Positions 354-52,517 of a DNA stretch of 64,000 nt are shown here, piece by piece. Position 1 is the first letter of the stretch, and the number at the start of each line of letters is the position of its first letter. Under the pieces are notes generated by a model. That model had not been told where the DNA came from, did no database searches, and worked only from the letters and a program-made list of their open reading frames with translations. The position numbers were made by a program, and so were the translations under genes. The DNA is from a virus (Duplodnaviria; Caudoviricetes), in IMG/VR virus record IMGVR_UViG_3300028886_000004, positions 70,992 to 134,991 of that record; one strand, 5' to 3'.

Positions 354-655
354 TAATCACCTCCCGATGAGGTTTTGCTAAGGTGACCGTGATAAGCGAA
401 GCGGGCCGAGGCAAAGCGCCGGAGGCCGCATTGGGCTGAAGGAAATCGGAAAAATACAGCGTGCAGGCCCGCATGGGTTAAACAGTGAGGCTAGGTCCTT
501 CAAGCTGCACGCCATGTCGCCTACGTAGTTGTCTTGACAAGCAATGAAGTAGTTTCCCTCGGACCGGTCAATAGGGTTAAGAGATCGGCACCTCTTTCTA
601 GGAGGTCCTCCCTGAGATGGGCAGGTAGCGCTACGTCAAAAGCGTATAGATTTAC

Positions 656-729
656 TGCGGGATAGAGCAGTTGGTAGCTCGCGTGGCTCATAACCACGAG
701 GTCCCCGTGTTCGAGTCCGGGTCCCGCTA
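656..729 (+). tRNA. tRNA-Met(CAT), initiator-like
   Basis: Cloverleaf TGCGGGA/TCCCGCT, D arm GAGC/GCTC, CGTGG-CTCATAA-CCACG, TTCGAGT T-loop; 1:72 mismatch and A11-U24; no encoded CCA. Confidence 0.9.
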
Positions 730-891
730 CTAAGGAAATAGGCGGTGCGCAAGCATCGCTGAAAGCGCCGAATGCTAGTTGCGCAACAATGGCTAGTAGG
801 TGGCATTCCCGCCTTGAGTGCTCCGGGGACGTTAAAATAAATGGGAGCGCAGCCAACTAAGAGGCTGTGAAGATGCAGCCAAAAGAATTTT

Positions 892-1045
892 GGGCTTGTG
901 AACGCGCGGGCTTGCCTCAAACCAACGCAATATGCCGATAGCTCTGAAATAAGGTGCGTGTAAACACTGGGCGGGAAACCGCCACAGCCAATCGGTAGGC
1001 AGAAGCGATGTTGAGGATGCGCCGGTTCGACTCCGGGCGGGTCCA
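892..1045 (+). ncRNA. tRNA-like/mini-tmRNA-like RNA
   Basis: GGGCTTG/CGGGTCC-A acceptor (G3.U70, A73), CCTCAA/TTGAGG stem, CCGG-TTCGACT-CCGG T arm, ~90-nt structured insert. Confidence 0.55.
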
Positions 1046-1199
1046 CTAAAAATTCAGGTCTTCTAAACGAGCAGGCGCTAATACCGCTTGTGCTTAGGAA
1101 TCCGGCGGCGGCAGTATGGTGTAAACATCCCGGCAGGGAAAGATAGCACTCCGCGGGCAATGCAGGTGTAAGTCCTGCCCTGATAGCTTTTTGAGTGTA

Positions 1200-1283
1200 G
1201 TCCTTGTGGTGGAAAAGCATACACTTGGCATCCGTTGGCCGAGGACCGAATCGGCTCTGTAGGTCCGTATCCTACCTTGGGCA
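1200..1283 (+). ncRNA. degenerate class II (Leu-like) tRNA with 8-nt anticodon loop
   Basis: GTG-GAAAAGCATA-CAC D arm, TTGGC/GCCGA stem, long variable arm, GTAGG-TCCGTAT-CCTAC T arm; two U.U mismatches in acceptor. Confidence 0.5.
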
Positions 1284-1509
1284 TGACTCAAAACGAAGGA
1301 GCTCCGGACGCCCAGCCCTTGCGAGGGAAGCGTCGCGCCACCGCGCTAGGAGACCTTCAAAGATTTGAAAGAACGCTGGTAAGTCCAAGCTCGAGATTGG
1401 GACAGCTGGCGAGCACGATTGGGACGCCTCCCGTGTGTGCTTCTCCGGTGGCCGTGAGGGCCGGGGGAAACAAGTTACCAGCAGGGGGCACAATTATCCC
1501 GCGCGGGAG

Positions 1510-1624
1510 CCGTGAAGGCATAGGTATAGTCCTTTGAAGTTGTGAAATTCAGCTGCTACTTTCACGGACCGGATATGGCCTTGTATAGCCTTTGAGTCTG
1601 TGAAATTCAGCGCGTCATATCCGG
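1510..1624 (+). ncRNA. tandem pair of a structured RNA motif
   Basis: Core GTATAG(T)CCTTTGA..TGTGAAATTCAGC twice, each closed by a different 9-11 bp stem. Confidence 0.55.
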
Positions 1625-1645
1625 ACGATTTTTCTTTCCTGGTGT

Positions 1646-1677
1646 AGGGGGCGCCTATTATTTAGGCGCCTCCTTTC
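1646..1677 (+). terminator. intrinsic terminator, immediately followed by -10 box at 1679
   Basis: AGGGGGCGCCTA/TAGGCGCCTCCT hairpin plus short T tract. Confidence 0.6.
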
Positions 1678-1709
1678 GTATATTTAGGTATCTTTTCAAA
1701 AGGAATACA

Positions 1710-2342
1710 ATGGAACACAAACTCGAAATCGTATACCTCCCGGTAAAGGACATTTACCCCTACAAGAACAACAATAAGACCCACGCCGATAACGTGGATT
1801 CCATCGCGAACTCCATTGAATGCTTCGGTTTCCAAATTCCTATTGTCGTGAATAAGGAACACGTCGTTATCACCGGCCACGGCCGCTTGATGGCAGCGCA
1901 GAAACTTGGCTTGGACGAAATCCCCTGCATCATCTCCAACCTTGACAAGGAAGCTGAAGATGAATTCCGCATCATCGATAACGTGACGCAGTCCCTCGGT
2001 AAGCTGGACTTTGCCTCCGTTGCGAAGGAAATTATGGGCGGCCGCGTTCACTCCAAGTATCTCACCGAAATGAAGAATATCATTACGGACATCAAGAACA
2101 TCCGCCCGCTGGACCCCAAGATCCTCAAGAAGCGCAACATGTTGCCTCAGGAAGCTGGTATGGCCGCCGAAGTGGTTGGTGAAATCCCCGAAGACAATGC
2201 CGCCACGCCTGCTTCGGCGGTTCCGGATCCTGAAGCGCCTGCCGACGCCGAACCGGTTGAACCGACCGACGCCGAACCGGTTGATACCGGCAGTTCCGAA
2301 GGCGCCGAAGACTTTAACATCATTGGTTGGGATAAGGTTTAA
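1710..2342 (+). CDS. ParB/Srx N-terminal domain protein
   Basis: SIECFGFQIPIVV..VITGHGRLMAA motif; acidic Pro-rich repeat tail. Confidence 0.85.
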   Translation: MEHKLEIVYLPVKDIYPYKNNNKTHADNVDSIANSIECFGFQIPIVVNKEHVVITGHGRLMAAQKLGLDEIPCIISNLDKEAEDEFRIIDNVTQSLGKLDFASVAKEIMGGRVHSKYLTEMKNIITDIKNIRPLDPKILKKRNMLPQEAGMAAEVVGEIPEDNAATPASAVPDPEAPADAEPVEPTDAEPVDTGSSEGAEDFNIIGWDKV

Positions 2343-2344
2343 CA

Positions 2345-3109
2345 ATGAAGTATTATGCCGGTCTTGATATCGGAAAGCTTCATGCGACAGTGTCCAAGGA
2401 AGCATTCCGTAAACACAAATTCAAATATGTCCTTGTGTCCTTCTATTATTTGAGCAAGGCATCCCCGGAACGCGTGCAAGAGGCGCTGGATCTTTATTCC
2501 GGCCCCGAACCCGGTCAGGAGATCCTGCTTGACTCCGGCGCCTTCTCTATGATGATGGCAGCCAAGAAGGGAAAGCTGAAGGGCGAATTCAACCTTGACA
2601 AGTATGTGGAAGCCTACGGCGAGTTCATCAAGAAGTATCGCCGCTATTTCACCCACTTCTTCGAATTGGATATTCAGTCCGTGGTTGGCGAGCAGGAATA
2701 CGCCCGCCTCCGCAAGAAGCTGATTGACATTGTCGGCGAGGAACCTACGCTGGTTTGGCACATCTTCGACCCGATTCAAAAGTTTGCCGATTACTGCGAA
2801 AAGGTAGGACCCGGCGGATTCTTTGCAATCGGTGGCGTGGCAGGCTCCGGCTTGACCAACTGCCACGATGTCGCCCGCCTGATGCGCGAACTCGTTTGGT
2901 ATGCCCGCGCCCGCGATGTTCATATCCACGGCCTCGGCATTACGAGCAAGCTGGCGCGTTACATTGACTTTGATTCGGTGGACAGCTTCACCTACATCAA
3001 GCCGGTAACGAGCGTCCCTGAATTCATACGTGCCTACGGCTACAACCGTGGACATATGATCAGTTGTGCGGTCGCCAAGCTCAACCAGCTGATTTGGGAT
3101 ACGTTCTAG
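2345..3109 (+). CDS. dpdA: DpdA-like 7-deazaguanine DNA transglycosylase (TGT fold)
   Basis: LLDSGAFS, FELDI, VWH, AIGG, IHGLG, DSVDS motifs; next to queC. Confidence 0.7.
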   Translation: MKYYAGLDIGKLHATVSKEAFRKHKFKYVLVSFYYLSKASPERVQEALDLYSGPEPGQEILLDSGAFSMMMAAKKGKLKGEFNLDKYVEAYGEFIKKYRRYFTHFFELDIQSVVGEQEYARLRKKLIDIVGEEPTLVWHIFDPIQKFADYCEKVGPGGFFAIGGVAGSGLTNCHDVARLMRELVWYARARDVHIHGLGITSKLARYIDFDSVDSFTYIKPVTSVPEFIRAYGYNRGHMISCAVAKLNQLIWDTF

Positions 3110-3179
3110 CGGTCCGTATAAATAAGGGCTGTTATTGCAACCCTTAACGGAGATGCCAACTATGAAGAAGTAATCCTTT

Positions 3180-3329
3180 TTGTGATCCTTGCGTGGCAGG
3201 AGATGGCCAAAACTGCCGCCCTGATTAGGGTAGGGATAGGACCGGAGGCCGCGTTGAAAAGCGCTATAGTGTTGAAAAGCCGCTCCGGAAACCGTCCACA
3301 AAGGTTCAAATCCTTTCCGGGGGTCACAA
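3180..3329 (+). ncRNA. tRNA-like RNA with truncated anticodon arm and giant variable arm
   Basis: 12-bp closing stem, GCAG/CTGC D arm with GG loop, AAAGG-TTCAAAT-CCTTT T arm; own promoter (3117) and terminator (3346). Confidence 0.6.
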
Positions 3330-3345
3330 TGTCCTTTCCTTGGTG

Positions 3346-3371
3346 GGCGCCCTATTATGGGCGCCTTTTTT
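3346..3371 (+). terminator. intrinsic terminator followed by -10 box at 3374
   Basis: GGCGCCC-TATTAT-GGGCGCC-TTTTTT. Confidence 0.7.
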
Positions 3372-3457
3372 CGTATATTCGAACAACGCGGCCCCTAAGA
3401 GATACAGCGCTCCCAATTACGCAGGGCTGCCCAATTTAATACCTAAAGAGGTTATCT

Positions 3458-4156
3458 ATGAAGGCTCTCGTTCTTAACTCCGGTGGCGTTGATTCTACTA
3501 CCTGCGTCGCCCTCGCAATCGAAAAGTATGGCAAAGAAAATGTGGTGACCGCCACCCTTTACTATGGGCAGCGCCACGACAAGGAACTCGAATGCGCCCG
3601 CAAGGTTGCAGAATACTACGGCGTCCGCCACATCGAGGAAGACATCTCTTGCGTGATGAAGTATGCCGGCGATGTGTGCTCCCTTATGAAGGATTCCAAG
3701 ACGGAAATCCCGGACAAGTCCTATTCCGAACAGATCGCCGAAAATGGCGAAGGCCGCGTCGGCACCTATGTTCCGTTCCGTAACGGCTTGCTGCTTTCCA
3801 TCGCTACCGCCTATGCGGATTCCTTGTTCCCCGGTGAAGATGCCGTTGTCGTTTACGGGGCACATGCGGATGATGCCGCCGGGCAGGCTTACGCGGATTG
3901 TTCCCCCGCCTTCGCCGATGCAATGGACAACGCCATCTCGATCGGCACCTATGGCAAGATTCATGTGTGGCGCCCACTCATCAACCTGAATAAGGCTGGC
4001 GTTGTTGCCGAAGGCCTCCGTCTCAAGGTGCCTTACGAATTGACGTGGAGCTGCTACAAGGGTGGTGAAAAGGCTTGTGGCACCTGCGGCACCTGCATTG
4101 ACCGCAAGGCCGCATTCGAGGCAAACGGAGTAAAGGACCCGATCGAATATGTGTAA
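3458..4156 (+). CDS. queC: 7-cyano-7-deazaguanine synthase
   Basis: SGGVDST, YGQRH, YVPFRN, YADC, TWSCY, CGTCGTC motifs. Confidence 0.97.
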   Translation: MKALVLNSGGVDSTTCVALAIEKYGKENVVTATLYYGQRHDKELECARKVAEYYGVRHIEEDISCVMKYAGDVCSLMKDSKTEIPDKSYSEQIAENGEGRVGTYVPFRNGLLLSIATAYADSLFPGEDAVVVYGAHADDAAGQAYADCSPAFADAMDNAISIGTYGKIHVWRPLINLNKAGVVAEGLRLKVPYELTWSCYKGGEKACGTCGTCIDRKAAFEANGVKDPIEYV

Positions 4157-4544
4157 TGGACCAAGAACAGTTCAGCGCACTTGGGACGAGGTGAAGGCCG
4201 CCGCCATTTGGGCAGCCTCCAAGATGAAGGTGGACGGCAGGATGCTTAACGGCGTTTACGGGATTCCCCGTGGCGGCGCCTGCCTTGCGGTCCTCTTCTC
4301 CCATCTCCTGAAAATCGAATACCTTGACAAGCCGCGTGAAGGCTGCCTGATTTGCGATGACATCTCGGACACCGGCCAAACGCTGCTTCGTTACGCGAAT
4401 CTCCCCGGGGTAACCTTCTACACGGACGTGGCGAAGGAAACCGCCCGGAAGCAGCCGGACTACTACGGGAAATTCATTCCTGAATTGGATGCGGATTCCG
4501 CCGCGTGGATTGAATTTCCGTGGGAGGAACCTTCCAAGAAGTAA
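4149..4544 (+). CDS. type I phosphoribosyltransferase (Gpt-like)
   Basis: YGIPRGG, LICDDISDTGQT PRPP loop, WIEFPWE. Confidence 0.85.
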   Translation: MCNGPRTVQRTWDEVKAAAIWAASKMKVDGRMLNGVYGIPRGGACLAVLFSHLLKIEYLDKPREGCLICDDISDTGQTLLRYANLPGVTFYTDVAKETARKQPDYYGKFIPELDADSAAWIEFPWEEPSKK

Positions 4545-38400: not shown

Positions 38401-38581
38401 GCGTGTGGTCCAATAGGGTGAGCCCCGGTTGCAAACTCGGCAGCGCCTGAACGCGGTCTTGGACTCAAATGATCGGATTATTGCAATTAGTCCGATGCTG
38501 TAGTAGGGTCGGTAAAAGAATTCGAAGCTTGTAGTAGGATGTTCCCGCCCCGAGGCTACCGGTTCGACTCCGGCGCACGCG
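38401..38581 (+). ncRNA. tRNA-like RNA with ~110-nt insert
   Basis: GCGTGTG/CGCACGC acceptor, CCGG-TTCGACT-CCGG T arm, two TTGCAA(A/T) loops. Confidence 0.6.
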
Positions 38582-38600
38582 ATAATTTAAAAGGATTGAT

Positions 38601-52124: not shown

Positions 52125-52517
52125 ATGAAAATGGAAGCATTACCGGTCATTGCTGAGACCAGCCGCGAGTTGGGACTCCCGCTCGCAGTAACCCTCGCGC
52201 TGCTTATTATCGCCACGATTGTCATTGTGGTGGTAGTCCTTCGGGAGCACCGCAATAAAATCGAAAATATCAAGGAGGCAGTGACCACTATGAAAAGTAA
52301 TGTGGATGCGCAAATCGCCGAAATCAAGGAAGCTACCTCTAAGGAAATCGCCGAGGTCAAAACCTCTATGGAAAAAGCGGTGGACGAAATAAAAACCGAA
52401 ATGGTTAGGCAGGCCTCCGCCCATAACGCCGAACTGAGCTCCTTGTATAAACTCGTCAATGGCGTTGCCATTGATGTGTCCTTTATCAAGGGAAAAATGA
52501 CCCGCGGCCAAAAATAA
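52125..52517 (+). CDS. membrane-anchored coiled-coil protein (holin/hemolysin-like)
   Basis: Single N-terminal TM plus coiled coil. Confidence 0.55.
   Translation: MKMEALPVIAETSRELGLPLAVTLALLIIATIVIVVVVLREHRNKIENIKEAVTTMKSNVDAQIAEIKEATSKEIAEVKTSMEKAVDEIKTEMVRQASAHNAELSSLYKLVNGVAIDVSFIKGKMTRGQK

What the first reader, a model, noticed from the sequence alone, without database searches (positions are those of the whole stretch)
892..1045. 154-nt mini-tmRNA-like RNA with alanine identity elements
Seen: G1-C72, G2-C71, G3.U70 and A73, no clear D stem, a P2-like CCTCAA/TTGAGG helix, short linker and T arm, which is the layout of the tmRNA tRNA-like domain. The insert (TGCCGAT/ATCGGTA, GTG-TAAA-CAC, GGCGG-GAAA-CCGCC) contains a short frame ending ..M-P-I-A-L-K-stop (932-952). 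Known: G3.U70/A73 specify AlaRS, tmRNAs are usually ~300-400 nt, and tags end in -AA. Inference: a minimal ribosome-rescue RNA with a non-degron tag, or an SmpB/AlaRS decoy.
Basis: partly seen in the sequence, partly recalled or inferred. Interest (0 to 1): 0.72.

Follow-up and report, generated by a model that had tools for sequence, protein, structure and literature searches.

The report
Anticodon-less alanine tRNA mimic in phage
A rumen phage that already has a full ribosome-rescue RNA (tmRNA) also carries a very conserved, probably transcribed 154-base RNA gene with the alanine-accepting top half of a tRNA and a long rod instead of an anticodon arm; it is a new variant of the little-studied phage "mini-tmRNA / tRNA-mimic" RNAs, and its job is still unproven.

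Summary
Window 892-1045 has G1-C72, G2-C71, G3.U70 and A73, a UUCGACU T arm, no D stem, and a CCUCAA/UUGAGG helix closing a 90-nt insert.

The window is part of a complete 135-kb rumen myophage. That phage also encodes a full tmRNA (tag AAPVAMAA) 17 kb upstream.

The element is the best-conserved piece of its locus:
- It is 157/157 identical in a second phage variant whose flanks are 85-94% identical.
- It is 150/157 identical in a third variant, with a compensatory C-G to U-A change in the T stem.

It lies in a 1.3-kb gene-free tRNA "operon". In one rumen RNA library this stretch assembles as a single contig at about 18 times the depth of the next gene.

It fails three membership tests:
- The Rfam tmRNA model gives 17.6 bits against a cut-off of 47.
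- A model of the DS6A-type 75-80-nt TLD-only family gives 14 bits, against 52-95 for members.
- It lacks the GGnUUCGAC elbow motif, the pseudoknots and a credible tag frame.

Best reading (0.4): an alanine-chargeable, anticodon-less tRNA mimic derived from tmRNA or tRNA-Ala that engages the rescue or charging machinery. Main rival (0.32): the tRNA top half is only a processing and stability handle for a cargo RNA.

This scan has reported related phage mini-tmRNAs many times on other DNA.

The parts
892..1048 (+). Whole RNA module: 154 nt to the discriminator A1045, plus the CUA trailer
   Evidence: 157/157 identical in L040 and 150/157 in L009, while the flanks diverge. An RNA-run contig of a variant starts matching at 889, and another variant matches only from 1049. 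This places the module borders at about 889-892 and 1048/1049.
892..898 (+). Acceptor 5' strand GGGCUUG (preferred 5' end)
   Evidence: Pairs 7/7 with 1038-1044. The same acceptor, GGGCUUG/CAGGUCC, occurs in a full phage tmRNA in L017. The leader ends in UUUU.
899..914 (+). D-loop analogue without a D stem. It holds the second GGGCUUG copy (908-914, the alternative 5' end). G909 and G910 sit at tRNA positions 18/19.
   Evidence: Sequence. Rfam aligns the acceptor from 908. The two L009 substitutions here (899 U>C, 907 C>U) keep the alternative hairpin 892-900/905-913 paired. The GGnUUCGAC motif of tmRNAs is absent.
915..939 (+). 5' strand of the long irregular rod (P2-like): 915-920, 923-924, 926-928, 933-939
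   Evidence: All 25 proposed rod pairs form in both distinct sequences, but none of them varies. An alternative register, UGCC 933-936 with GGCA 998-1001, is equally possible.
940..990 (+). 51-nt cap replacing PK1, the tag region and PK2-4: an A-rich single strand (940-957), hairpin GUG-UAAA-CAC (958-967) and GNRA hairpin GGCGG-GAAA-CCGCC (970-983)
   Evidence: Sequence and fold. 983 C>U in L009 and in two RNA-run variants keeps G970 paired as G.U. The Rfam model treats this part as an insertion where 261 model positions are missing.
991..1016 (+). 3' strand of the rod, including a GUAG motif at 995-998
   Evidence: Sequence similarity to the P2 strands of real tmRNAs is not significant.
1017..1021 (+). 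Linker AUGCG, of variable-loop length. It is not the GGAC of tmRNAs.
   Evidence: 1020 C>U occurs in one RNA-run variant.
1022..1036 (+). T arm: 4-bp stem and UUCGACU loop (position 49-65 would be G.G)
   Evidence: Compensatory change C1023-G1035 to U-A in L009.
1038..1045 (+). Acceptor 3' strand CGGGUCC plus discriminator A73
   Evidence: 1039 G>A in L009 turns U6.G67 into U6-A67. In GTDB genomes the 3' 22-mer occurs mostly in tRNA-Ala genes (19 of 24 called). In IMG/VR it occurs mostly in tmRNAs.
656..730 (+). tRNA-Met (CAU) upstream in the same gene-free unit (context)
   Evidence: ARAGORN and Rfam. In L040 an odd tRNA replaces it.
386..1714 (+). Gene-free, probably transcribed unit that contains the element (context)
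   Evidence: In rumen RNA run X3 one 1347-nt contig matches 386-1714 with 0 differences at depth 166, against 9.3 for the next contig. A promoter-like site lies at 325-353 and a terminator-like hairpin at 1641-1655.

Best explanation
This is a real small-RNA gene of a lytic-type rumen myophage. Its two ends form an alanine-type tRNA 'top half': a 7-bp acceptor with G3.U70, A73, and a T arm. Its middle is a rod of about 100 nt with a two-hairpin cap. It has no anticodon, no D stem and no pseudoknots.

Inferred pathway:
1. It is cut out of the 1.3-kb tRNA-containing precursor by host RNase P (5') and RNase Z (3').
2. It receives CCA from the host enzyme.
3. It is charged with alanine by host AlaRS, which needs only the acceptor helix.
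4. Because it cannot decode, it acts as a tRNA/tmRNA mimic. It occupies or competes for factors that handle Ala-tRNA-like molecules (AlaRS, EF-Tu, possibly SmpB and stalled ribosomes). This modulates ribosome rescue during infection rather than adding a degradation tag.

Shown here: the sequence features, conservation, one compensatory change, the module borders, and presence at raised contig depth in RNA libraries. Inferred: processing, CCA addition, alanylation, partners and effect.
For:
- Weak but non-random tmRNA-model match: 17.6 bits, E 2e-4 to 2e-6.
- An alanine-type top half is found once in the genome and 0 times in 30 shuffles.
- The acceptor is identical to that of a full phage tmRNA (L017).
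- The 3' 22-mer is found almost only in tRNA-Ala genes (cells) and in tmRNAs or minis (phages).
- The element is the most conserved part of the locus: 100% against L040 (flanks 85-94%) and 95.5% against L009 (tRNA-Met 90.7%, next module 82.6%, ParB 79%).
- All four substituted paired positions keep pairing, including C-G to U-A in the T stem.
- The module borders at 889-892 and 1048/1049 coincide with the predicted RNA ends.
- RNA-library contig 386-1714 has depth 166, against 9.3 downstream.
- The phage lineage invests in trans-translation: full tmRNAs occur in G000 and in the L009 phage.
- Precedent: the TLD-only tmRNA of phage DS6A. A similar molecule inhibits tmRNA in E. coli (PMC4131195, PMC11915505).
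- At least 9 further DS6A-type minis were found in IMG/VR here.
Against: - The elbow motif GGnUUCGAC and the GGAC linker are absent. Every full tmRNA and TLD-only mini examined here keeps the GGnUUCGAY elbow motif, and all of the full tmRNAs and most of the minis have a GGAC or GAC linker before the T stem.
- The DS6A-family model scores the element at only 14.3 bits and picks a wrong 5' end.
- The T stem has a G.G mismatch at 49-65.
- No SmpB is encoded, and the same phage's full tmRNA would compete for the same host SmpB.
- A second RNA family in these phages has the same plan but freely varying, non-alanine acceptors. In this lineage the top half can therefore serve without any amino-acid identity.
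- Only two distinct sequences are in hand, so covariation is not statistically meaningful (266/500 shuffles reach the observed values).
- Contig depth is a poor measure of expression.
- The 5' end (892 or 908) is undecided.
Confidence: 0.4

Rival explanations
1. Cargo RNA with a tRNA-like handle. The acceptor/T-arm minihelix serves only as an RNase P/Z processing signal, a CCA-addition site and a stabiliser. The function lies in the invariant 100-nt rod and cap, which would bind a protein or another RNA. The alanine identity is inherited from a tRNA-Ala or tmRNA ancestor and is incidental or tolerated. It would work like phage T4 RNA C/D, small stable RNAs of the tRNA cluster.
For: - The same phages carry a second RNA of about 180 nt with the same plan (window 38402-38582; L009:1347-1524). 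Its acceptor stems differ completely between homologues (CGUGUGG/GCACGCG against GGCACCU/GGGUGCU) and lack G3.U70.
- The whole insert is invariant, not just its stems. That fits sequence-specific binding.
- The tmRNA elbow motif is absent.
- T4 rnaC (139 nt, annotated as a small stable RNA next to tRNAs) also ends in a CCGGG-UUCGAAU-CCCGG T arm closed by a terminal stem.
Against: - The complete alanine set (G1-C72, G2-C71, G3.U70, A73) is kept in every variant, and a processed RNA carrying it should be charged in the cell.
- No antisense target above chance was found in the phage genome.
- No Rfam family matches the insert.
Confidence: 0.32
2. True minimal tmRNA. It is charged with alanine, enters stalled ribosomes with host SmpB, and offers a very short non-degron message. 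One candidate is GCC 934 ... UAA 961-963, with the stop codon in the loop of hairpin 958-967; another is UGC-GUG-UAA after AAUAAGG. Ribosomes would be released without marking the protein for proteolysis.
For: - An A-rich single strand with AAUA lies upstream of short frames, and a stop codon sits in a hairpin loop, as in tmRNA helix 5.
- tmRNAs with 2-residue tags are reported (PMC11915505).
- The tmRNA model aligns the rod as P2, including the GUAG motif.
Against: - There are no pseudoknots, and PK1 is the most conserved of them (established knowledge).
- No frame has the canonical spacing together with a GCN start and an ..AA end.
- The SmpB elbow motif is missing.
- The P2 similarity is not significant.
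- No sequence variation is available to test coding.
Confidence: 0.1
3. Counter-defence decoy. The RNA mimics the top half of tmRNA or tRNA-Ala to absorb a host factor that senses or cuts such RNAs. Candidates are SmpB-like sensor domains of CoCoNuT systems, acceptor-stem nucleases and RNase R.
For: - Defence systems with SmpB-like domains predicted to bind tmRNA are described (PMC11090510).
- A phage anti-CRISPR works through t(m)RNA fragments and RNase R (PMC11662646).
- The contig holding the element has high depth in an RNA library.
- These phages swap tRNA-like modules as cassettes.
Against: This is purely by analogy. No defence or anti-defence gene was linked to the element here, and the elbow motif that SmpB-like folds would read is absent.
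Confidence: 0.1
4. Non-functional relic: a decaying tmRNA or tRNA-Ala duplicate, or an attP fragment of a host ssrA gene.
For: - A related phage (L010) does carry a truncated tmRNA remnant.
- The MFE z-score is unremarkable.
Against: - The element is the most conserved segment of the locus, and it shows a compensatory T-stem change.
- No integrase is present.
- The 5' acceptor strand is present.
- The 22-mer is absent from rumen-type host genomes among 185,579 species.
- It lies in a contig of raised depth in an RNA library.
Confidence: 0.05

Closest known systems
TLD-only (CDS-less) tmRNA of mycobacteriophage DS6A (JN698994 28478-28557), and its uncultivated-phage relatives
   Same: Phage-encoded, with an alanine-type acceptor (G3.U70, A73), a T arm, no anticodon, no D stem and no tag. 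Often sits beside tRNA genes (PMC4131195, PMC11915505).
   Different: DS6A-type RNAs are 75-80 nt and keep GGnUUCGAY, a short P2 hairpin and usually GGAC. The window element is 154 nt with a 102-nt rod and cap. It lacks those motifs, scores 14.3 bits against 52-95 bits with the family model, and coexists with a full phage tmRNA.
Canonical one-piece tmRNA (Rfam RF00023), including this phage's own copy at genome 54831-55186
   Same: The acceptor and T arm, a long helix closing the body, and the absence of a D stem. The model gives a weak match.
   Different: The element has no pseudoknots, no recognisable resume codon or degron tag, and 51 nt where 261 model positions are expected. Its score is below the gathering cut-off. 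It is not a recent copy of the phage's own tmRNA, which has a different acceptor and T stem.
Phage T4 small stable RNAs C and D (rnaC/rnaD, species 1 and 2) of the tRNA gene cluster
   Same: Stable RNAs of 119-139 nt encoded next to phage tRNAs. rnaC ends in a canonical T arm closed by a terminal stem around an insert of about 100 nt. By the author's recollection their function is still unknown; no literature search on this ran.
   Different: There is no alanine identity in rnaC and no detectable sequence relationship. T4 is a coliphage.
CDS-less organellar tmRNAs (jakobid/oomycete mitochondria, about 65-bp plastid forms)
   Same: tmRNA derivatives retained without a tag reading frame (PMC11915505).
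   Different: They are organellar, much shorter or two-piece, and co-occur with a dedicated SmpB.

Membership tests
tmRNA (RF00023) | Alanine identity: G1-C72, G2-C71, G3.U70, A73 | tested here: met
   892-898 pairs with 1038-1044, followed by A1045.
tmRNA (RF00023) | T arm with a GGUUCGAnUCC-type loop stacked on the acceptor | tested here: met
   1022-1036. One compensatory pair change. The outer 49-65 pair is a G.G mismatch.
tmRNA (RF00023) | Elbow / SmpB-binding signature: D-loop analogue GGnUUCGAC and 3' linker GGAC | tested here: not met
   The element has GGGCUUGCC and AUGC(G). All 8 full tmRNAs and 9 minis inspected keep the GGnUUCGAY motif.
tmRNA (RF00023) | Pseudoknot PK1 followed by a resume codon, a tag frame and a stop codon in helix 5 | tested here: not met
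   Only 51 nt lie beyond the rod, forming two plain hairpins. Three short frames exist, none canonical.
tmRNA (RF00023) | Score at or above the Rfam gathering threshold (47 bits) | tested here: not met
   17.6 bits. ARAGORN -m gives no call.
tmRNA (RF00023) | Alanylation by AlaRS, and binding of SmpB and EF-Tu | not testable with these tools
   Biochemical. No SmpB gene in the phage.
DS6A-type TLD-only mini-tmRNA | Match to the family covariance model (built from 4 IMG/VR members; it recovers DS6A at 52.3 bits) | tested here: not met
   14.3 bits with a wrong 5' end, against 52-95 bits for members.
DS6A-type TLD-only mini-tmRNA | Size of about 63-80 nt with only a short P2 hairpin | tested here: not met
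   154 nt with a 102-nt rod and cap.
Canonical tRNA (RF00005) | Cloverleaf with a D arm and an anticodon arm | tested here: not met
   No tRNA-model match at E<=10 and no ARAGORN call. No D stem can be drawn.
Phage tRNA-cluster small stable RNAs (T4 RNA C/D type; a loose, function-unknown group) | Non-tRNA RNA in a tRNA transcription unit, closed by a terminal stem next to a T arm | tested here: met
   Same gene-free unit as tRNA-Met. T4 rnaC shows the same plan. No family model exists, so homology was not tested.
attP fragment of a host ssrA/tRNA gene | A 3' gene fragment identical to the host gene, with an integrase nearby | tested here: not met
   No PF00589 integrase. The 5' strand is present. 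The 22-mer is not in rumen-type genomes.

The most novel reading that the evidence does not exclude
A third form of trans-translation RNA. It would be pseudoknot-free and 154 nt long, alanine-charged, and work beside the phage's own full tmRNA. It would enter stalled ribosomes and release them either with no tag or with a 2-9-residue non-degron tag (stop codon in the loop of hairpin 958-967). The phage would thereby split ribosome rescue from proteolytic tagging.
Probability: 0.1. Interest if true: 0.8.

Novelty: new variant of a known kind. Interest (0 to 1): 0.45.

Why it matters
In the tmRNA database papers read here (PMC4131195, PMC11915505), the only CDS-less phage tmRNA derivative named is that of phage DS6A. 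This element shows that the theme is broader. A phage lineage can hold both a complete tmRNA and a much-modified alanine-type tRNA mimic that standard tools miss, and it keeps the mimic more conserved than the tRNA gene next to it.

If the RNA is charged and meets ribosomes or SmpB, it offers a natural minimal scaffold for asking what tmRNA needs beyond its acceptor half. It would also point to a way phages tune host ribosome rescue.

If it is only a handle for a cargo RNA, it joins T4 RNA C/D as a case of phage RNAs that borrow the tRNA top half for processing. By the author's recollection the function of RNA C/D is still unsolved.

Either way it needs an experiment, and the constructs are simple.

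Tried and rejected
- ARAGORN (tRNA and tmRNA modes) and Rfam at gathering thresholds found only tRNA-Met in the window.
- The MFE of 892-1045 is not unusual (z = -0.80). Constrained folds do not decide between 892 and 908 as the 5' end (-53.8 against -52.8 kcal/mol).
- The DS6A-family model R1 gives no real match.
- Global alignment of the rod strands to 8 real tmRNAs gives z mostly below 2 and 2.9 at most. Rod homology to P2 is therefore not claimed.
- A search for antisense targets of the element in the phage genome found only chance-level 10-11-mers, plus the T arm of the second RNA family.
- attP idea rejected: no integrase, and the 3' 22-mer is absent from plausible hosts.
- Phage-encoded partners: no SmpB and no CCA-adding enzyme. 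A weak RF-1/ArfB-like hit at window 52224-52412 lies in a coiled-coil membrane protein without GGQ and is spurious.
- Search for more homologues:
  - The IMG/VR scans with the 3' 22-mer and with an 18-mer of the insert found the element in only one other record, that of L009. An exact 27-mer of the window's own T arm and acceptor found nothing.
  - The metagenome scan gave only L039 (the same phage as L009) and L040.
  - blastn against 50,697 phage genomes matched only the tRNA-Met.
- Covariation statistics on 2 distinct sequences are uninformative.
- Parts of the locus without cover in some RNA runs are not used as evidence.
- The phage's own tRNA-Ala (GGGACGU...) and its own tmRNA (GGGGAUG...) are not the recent source of the element.

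Full report
**1. What and where**

The window is bases 70992-134991 of a complete 134,991-bp virus record with direct terminal repeats. It comes from bovine and sheep rumen samples. Gene content marks it as a tailed phage with a contractile tail: a tail sheath, a ParB-like nuclease, and DpdA/QueC-like genes for 7-deazaguanine.

The phage has no integrase, no SmpB and no CCA-adding enzyme. It encodes a full tmRNA at genome 54831-55186 (143.8 bits, tag AAPVAMAA). It also encodes a tRNA array (Glu, Ala, Asn, Tyr) and a tRNA-Met at window 656-730.

**2.

- The acceptor is 892-898 paired with 1038-1044, giving G1-C72, G2-C71, G3.U70 and two further G.U pairs.
- A1045 is the discriminator. No CCA is encoded.
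- The T arm is 1022-1036 with loop UUCGACU.
- The helix CCUCAA/UUGAGG is 915-920 paired with 1011-1016.
- The inner helices and the 932-952 mini-frame are also there.

- The outer T-stem pair is a G.G mismatch.
- GGGCUUG occurs twice (892 and 908), so two acceptors can be drawn. The Rfam tmRNA model picks 908.
- The two copies can also pair with each other as a hairpin.

I prefer 892 as the 5' end, for three reasons:
- Sequence variants break synteny at about 889-892 and at 1048/1049.
- The leader there ends in U's.
- Counting from 892 puts GG at tRNA positions 18/19.

This point is not settled.

**3. More than chance, and under selection**

- The Rfam tmRNA model gives 17.6 bits (E 2.3e-4 for 3 kb against all families; 2.4e-6 in the genome).
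- An alanine-type top-half descriptor hits once in the genome and never in 30 dinucleotide shuffles.

Three independent copies exist:
- The window itself.
- L040, a 4.8-kb rumen metagenome contig.
- L009 (the same phage as L039), a 131.7-kb related phage.

| Comparison | Element | Other parts of the locus |
|---|---|---|
| Window against L040 | 157/157 identical | upstream module 90%, downstream module 85%, ParB gene 87% |
| Window against L009 | 150/157 identical | tRNA-Met 90.7%, next module 82.6%, ParB 79%; the rest of the spacer unalignable |

The seven L009 differences fall as follows:
- C1023-G1035 becomes U-A, a compensatory change in the T stem.
- U6.G67 becomes U-A.
- G970-C983 becomes G.U.
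- Two changes lie in the D-loop analogue.
- One lies just after the discriminator.

With only two distinct sequences this is consistent with the fold but not statistically meaningful. The rod and cap never vary, so their pairing is unproven.

**4. Expression**

Six rumen RNA libraries hold the stretch. In run X3 a 1347-nt contig matches 386-1714 exactly at depth 166, while the next contig (from 1716, the ParB gene) has depth 9.3. DNA contamination would give equal depth on both sides, so this is moderate evidence for a strongly transcribed gene-free unit. The unit runs from a promoter-like site (325-353) to beyond a terminator-like hairpin (1641-1655). Contigs cannot show RNA ends.

**5. What it is not**

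- *Not a canonical tmRNA.* It scores below the gathering cut-off and has no pseudoknots. It has 51 nt where 261 model positions are expected.
- *Not a copy of the phage's own tmRNA or tRNA-Ala*.
- *Not a member of the DS6A-type TLD-only family.*
  - I found at least 9 distinct 75-79-nt members of that family in IMG/VR. Each has G3.U70, A73, GGnUUCGAY, a short P2 hairpin and usually GGAC. None is called by ARAGORN, and three lie in tRNA arrays.
  - A model built from four of them scores the nine at 52-95 bits and recovers the published DS6A gene (JN698994 28478-28557) at 52.3 bits.
  - It gives the window element only 14.3 bits, with a wrong 5' end.
- *It lacks the conserved elbow motif and the GGAC linker,* which all full tmRNAs and minis inspected here retain.
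- *The rod's resemblance to tmRNA P2, including GUAG, is not significant at the sequence level*.
- *Not an attP site.* There is no integrase. The 3' 22-mer occurs in only 39 places among 185,579 species genomes. Those are mostly tRNA-Ala genes of archaea, planctomycetes and others, not rumen taxa.

**6. What the top half says**

The same 22-mer pattern in IMG/VR lies almost only in full or permuted tmRNAs and in minis. The L009 acceptor, GGGCUUG/CAGGUCC, is identical to that of a full phage tmRNA (L017). The top half is therefore an alanine-acceptor helix by descent, from tmRNA or tRNA-Ala.

It is established knowledge that AlaRS charges minihelices carrying G3.U70 (Francklyn and Schimmel). 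That RNase P, RNase Z, the CCA enzyme and EF-Tu read the acceptor/T-arm stack is likewise established. If the RNA is processed as predicted, alanylation is the expected biochemical outcome.

**7. A caution from a sister RNA**

These phages have a second RNA family of about 180 nt with the same plan: a terminal 7-bp stem, a 4-bp T stem with UUCGAYY loop, and a large structured insert.
- It lies at L009:1347-1524, between tRNA-Met and the element.
- In this window it lies at 38402-38582, in another intergenic region.
- The two homologues are 80% identical but have entirely different terminal stems and no G3.U70.

Here the top half clearly works without a fixed amino-acid identity. That fits a processing or stability handle, as in T4 RNA C, which also ends in a T arm closed by a terminal stem. 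This raises the odds that the alanine set in the element is inherited rather than used.

**8. The tag question**

All three frames through the A-rich strand stop quickly:
- AUG 932 to UAA 952.
- UGC 933 to UAG 941.
- GCC 934 to UAA 963.

The last frame places its stop in the loop of hairpin 958-967, as in tmRNA helix 5. AAUA lies 3 nt before UGC-GUG-UAA. However, none of the frames combines the usual spacing, a GCN resume codon and a hydrophobic ..AA end. No sequence variation exists to test coding. I treat a functional tag as unlikely (0.1).

**9. Verdict**

This is a genuine, conserved and probably abundant phage RNA. It has the alanine-type top half of a tRNA/tmRNA and a long invariant rod.
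- Best reading (0.4): a chargeable, anticodon-less mimic that engages the Ala-tRNA/tmRNA-handling machinery and modulates ribosome rescue.
- Main rival (0.32): a cargo RNA using the tRNA top half as a handle.
- Further rivals: a true mini-tmRNA (0.1), a counter-defence decoy (0.1; compare PMC11090510 and PMC11662646), and a relic (0.05).

The kind is known: the DS6A TLD-only tmRNA (PMC4131195, PMC11915505) and T4 RNA C/D. This scan has already reported related phage mini-tmRNAs on many other genomes.

What is new is the architecture (154 nt, a long rod, no elbow motif), its coexistence with a full phage tmRNA, and its extreme conservation.

Noticed in passing
G000:C1:54831-55186 (L001, L008; 16 kb upstream of the window): Full-length phage tmRNA (143.8 bits) with the short tag AAPVAMAA. 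The L009 phage has AAPVAQAA. The L010 phage keeps only a 117-nt internally deleted remnant without a T arm (L010:1838-1954).
   Followed up: partly
window 38402-38582; L009:1347-1524: A second family of RNAs of about 180 nt, capped by a tRNA acceptor/T-arm top half around a large structured insert. The two homologues are 80% identical, with completely different terminal stems and several covarying inner helices. There is no alanine identity, and no Rfam or ARAGORN call.
   Followed up: partly
window 1049-1314, especially the hairpin at about 1071-1093: A separate conserved RNA module downstream. It has a hairpin with a 7-nt loop CUAAUAC (anticodon-loop-like: Y-U-NNN-R-N). Its stem shows compensatory changes in L009, L040 and RNA-run variants (A1073-U1089 to G-C). 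In another phage variant it is joined to unrelated upstream sequence at 1048/1049.
   Followed up: partly
window 382-456: The start of the gene-free unit. A 62-nt contig here reaches depth of about 4900 in a sheep rumen RNA library, and the stretch is also conserved in L010 right after the tmRNA remnant. It is possibly a very abundant small RNA. It has no Rfam match.
   Followed up: no
L009:2516-2591 and 2826-2899; L010:2260-2333 and 2749-2822; L040:1580-1654; G002 86688-86765: tRNA-shaped genes with 6- or 8-nt anticodon loops. ARAGORN labels them 'tRNA-???' with anticodons tt, gtca, ac, gata and tcga. The bodies are conserved while the anticodon loops differ between phages. In L040 one of them sits exactly where tRNA-Met sits in the window.
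   Followed up: no
window 740-814: A hairpin domain between tRNA-Met and the element, with a compensatory C-G to U-A change in L040 (GCGGUG...CAUCGC against GUGGUG...CAUCAC).
   Followed up: no
IMG/VR loci L102, L069, L041, L059, L080, L090, L098, L011/L020, L014, L034: At least 9 distinct DS6A-type TLD-only mini-tmRNAs (75-79 nt) and one 109-nt alanine-type mimic in uncultivated phages. None is called by ARAGORN and several lie in tRNA arrays.
   Followed up: partly
window 2345-4544: A gene cluster for 7-deazaguanine DNA modification: a DpdA/TGT-like gene, a QueC-like gene and a phosphoribosyl-transferase-like gene. It lies just downstream of a ParB-like nuclease gene (1710-2342).
   Followed up: no
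L036:5065-5138: A phage tRNA-like gene with a D arm, G3.U70 and A73, but an irregular anticodon loop (ARAGORN 'gt'). It shares the same 3' 22-mer as the element.
   Followed up: no
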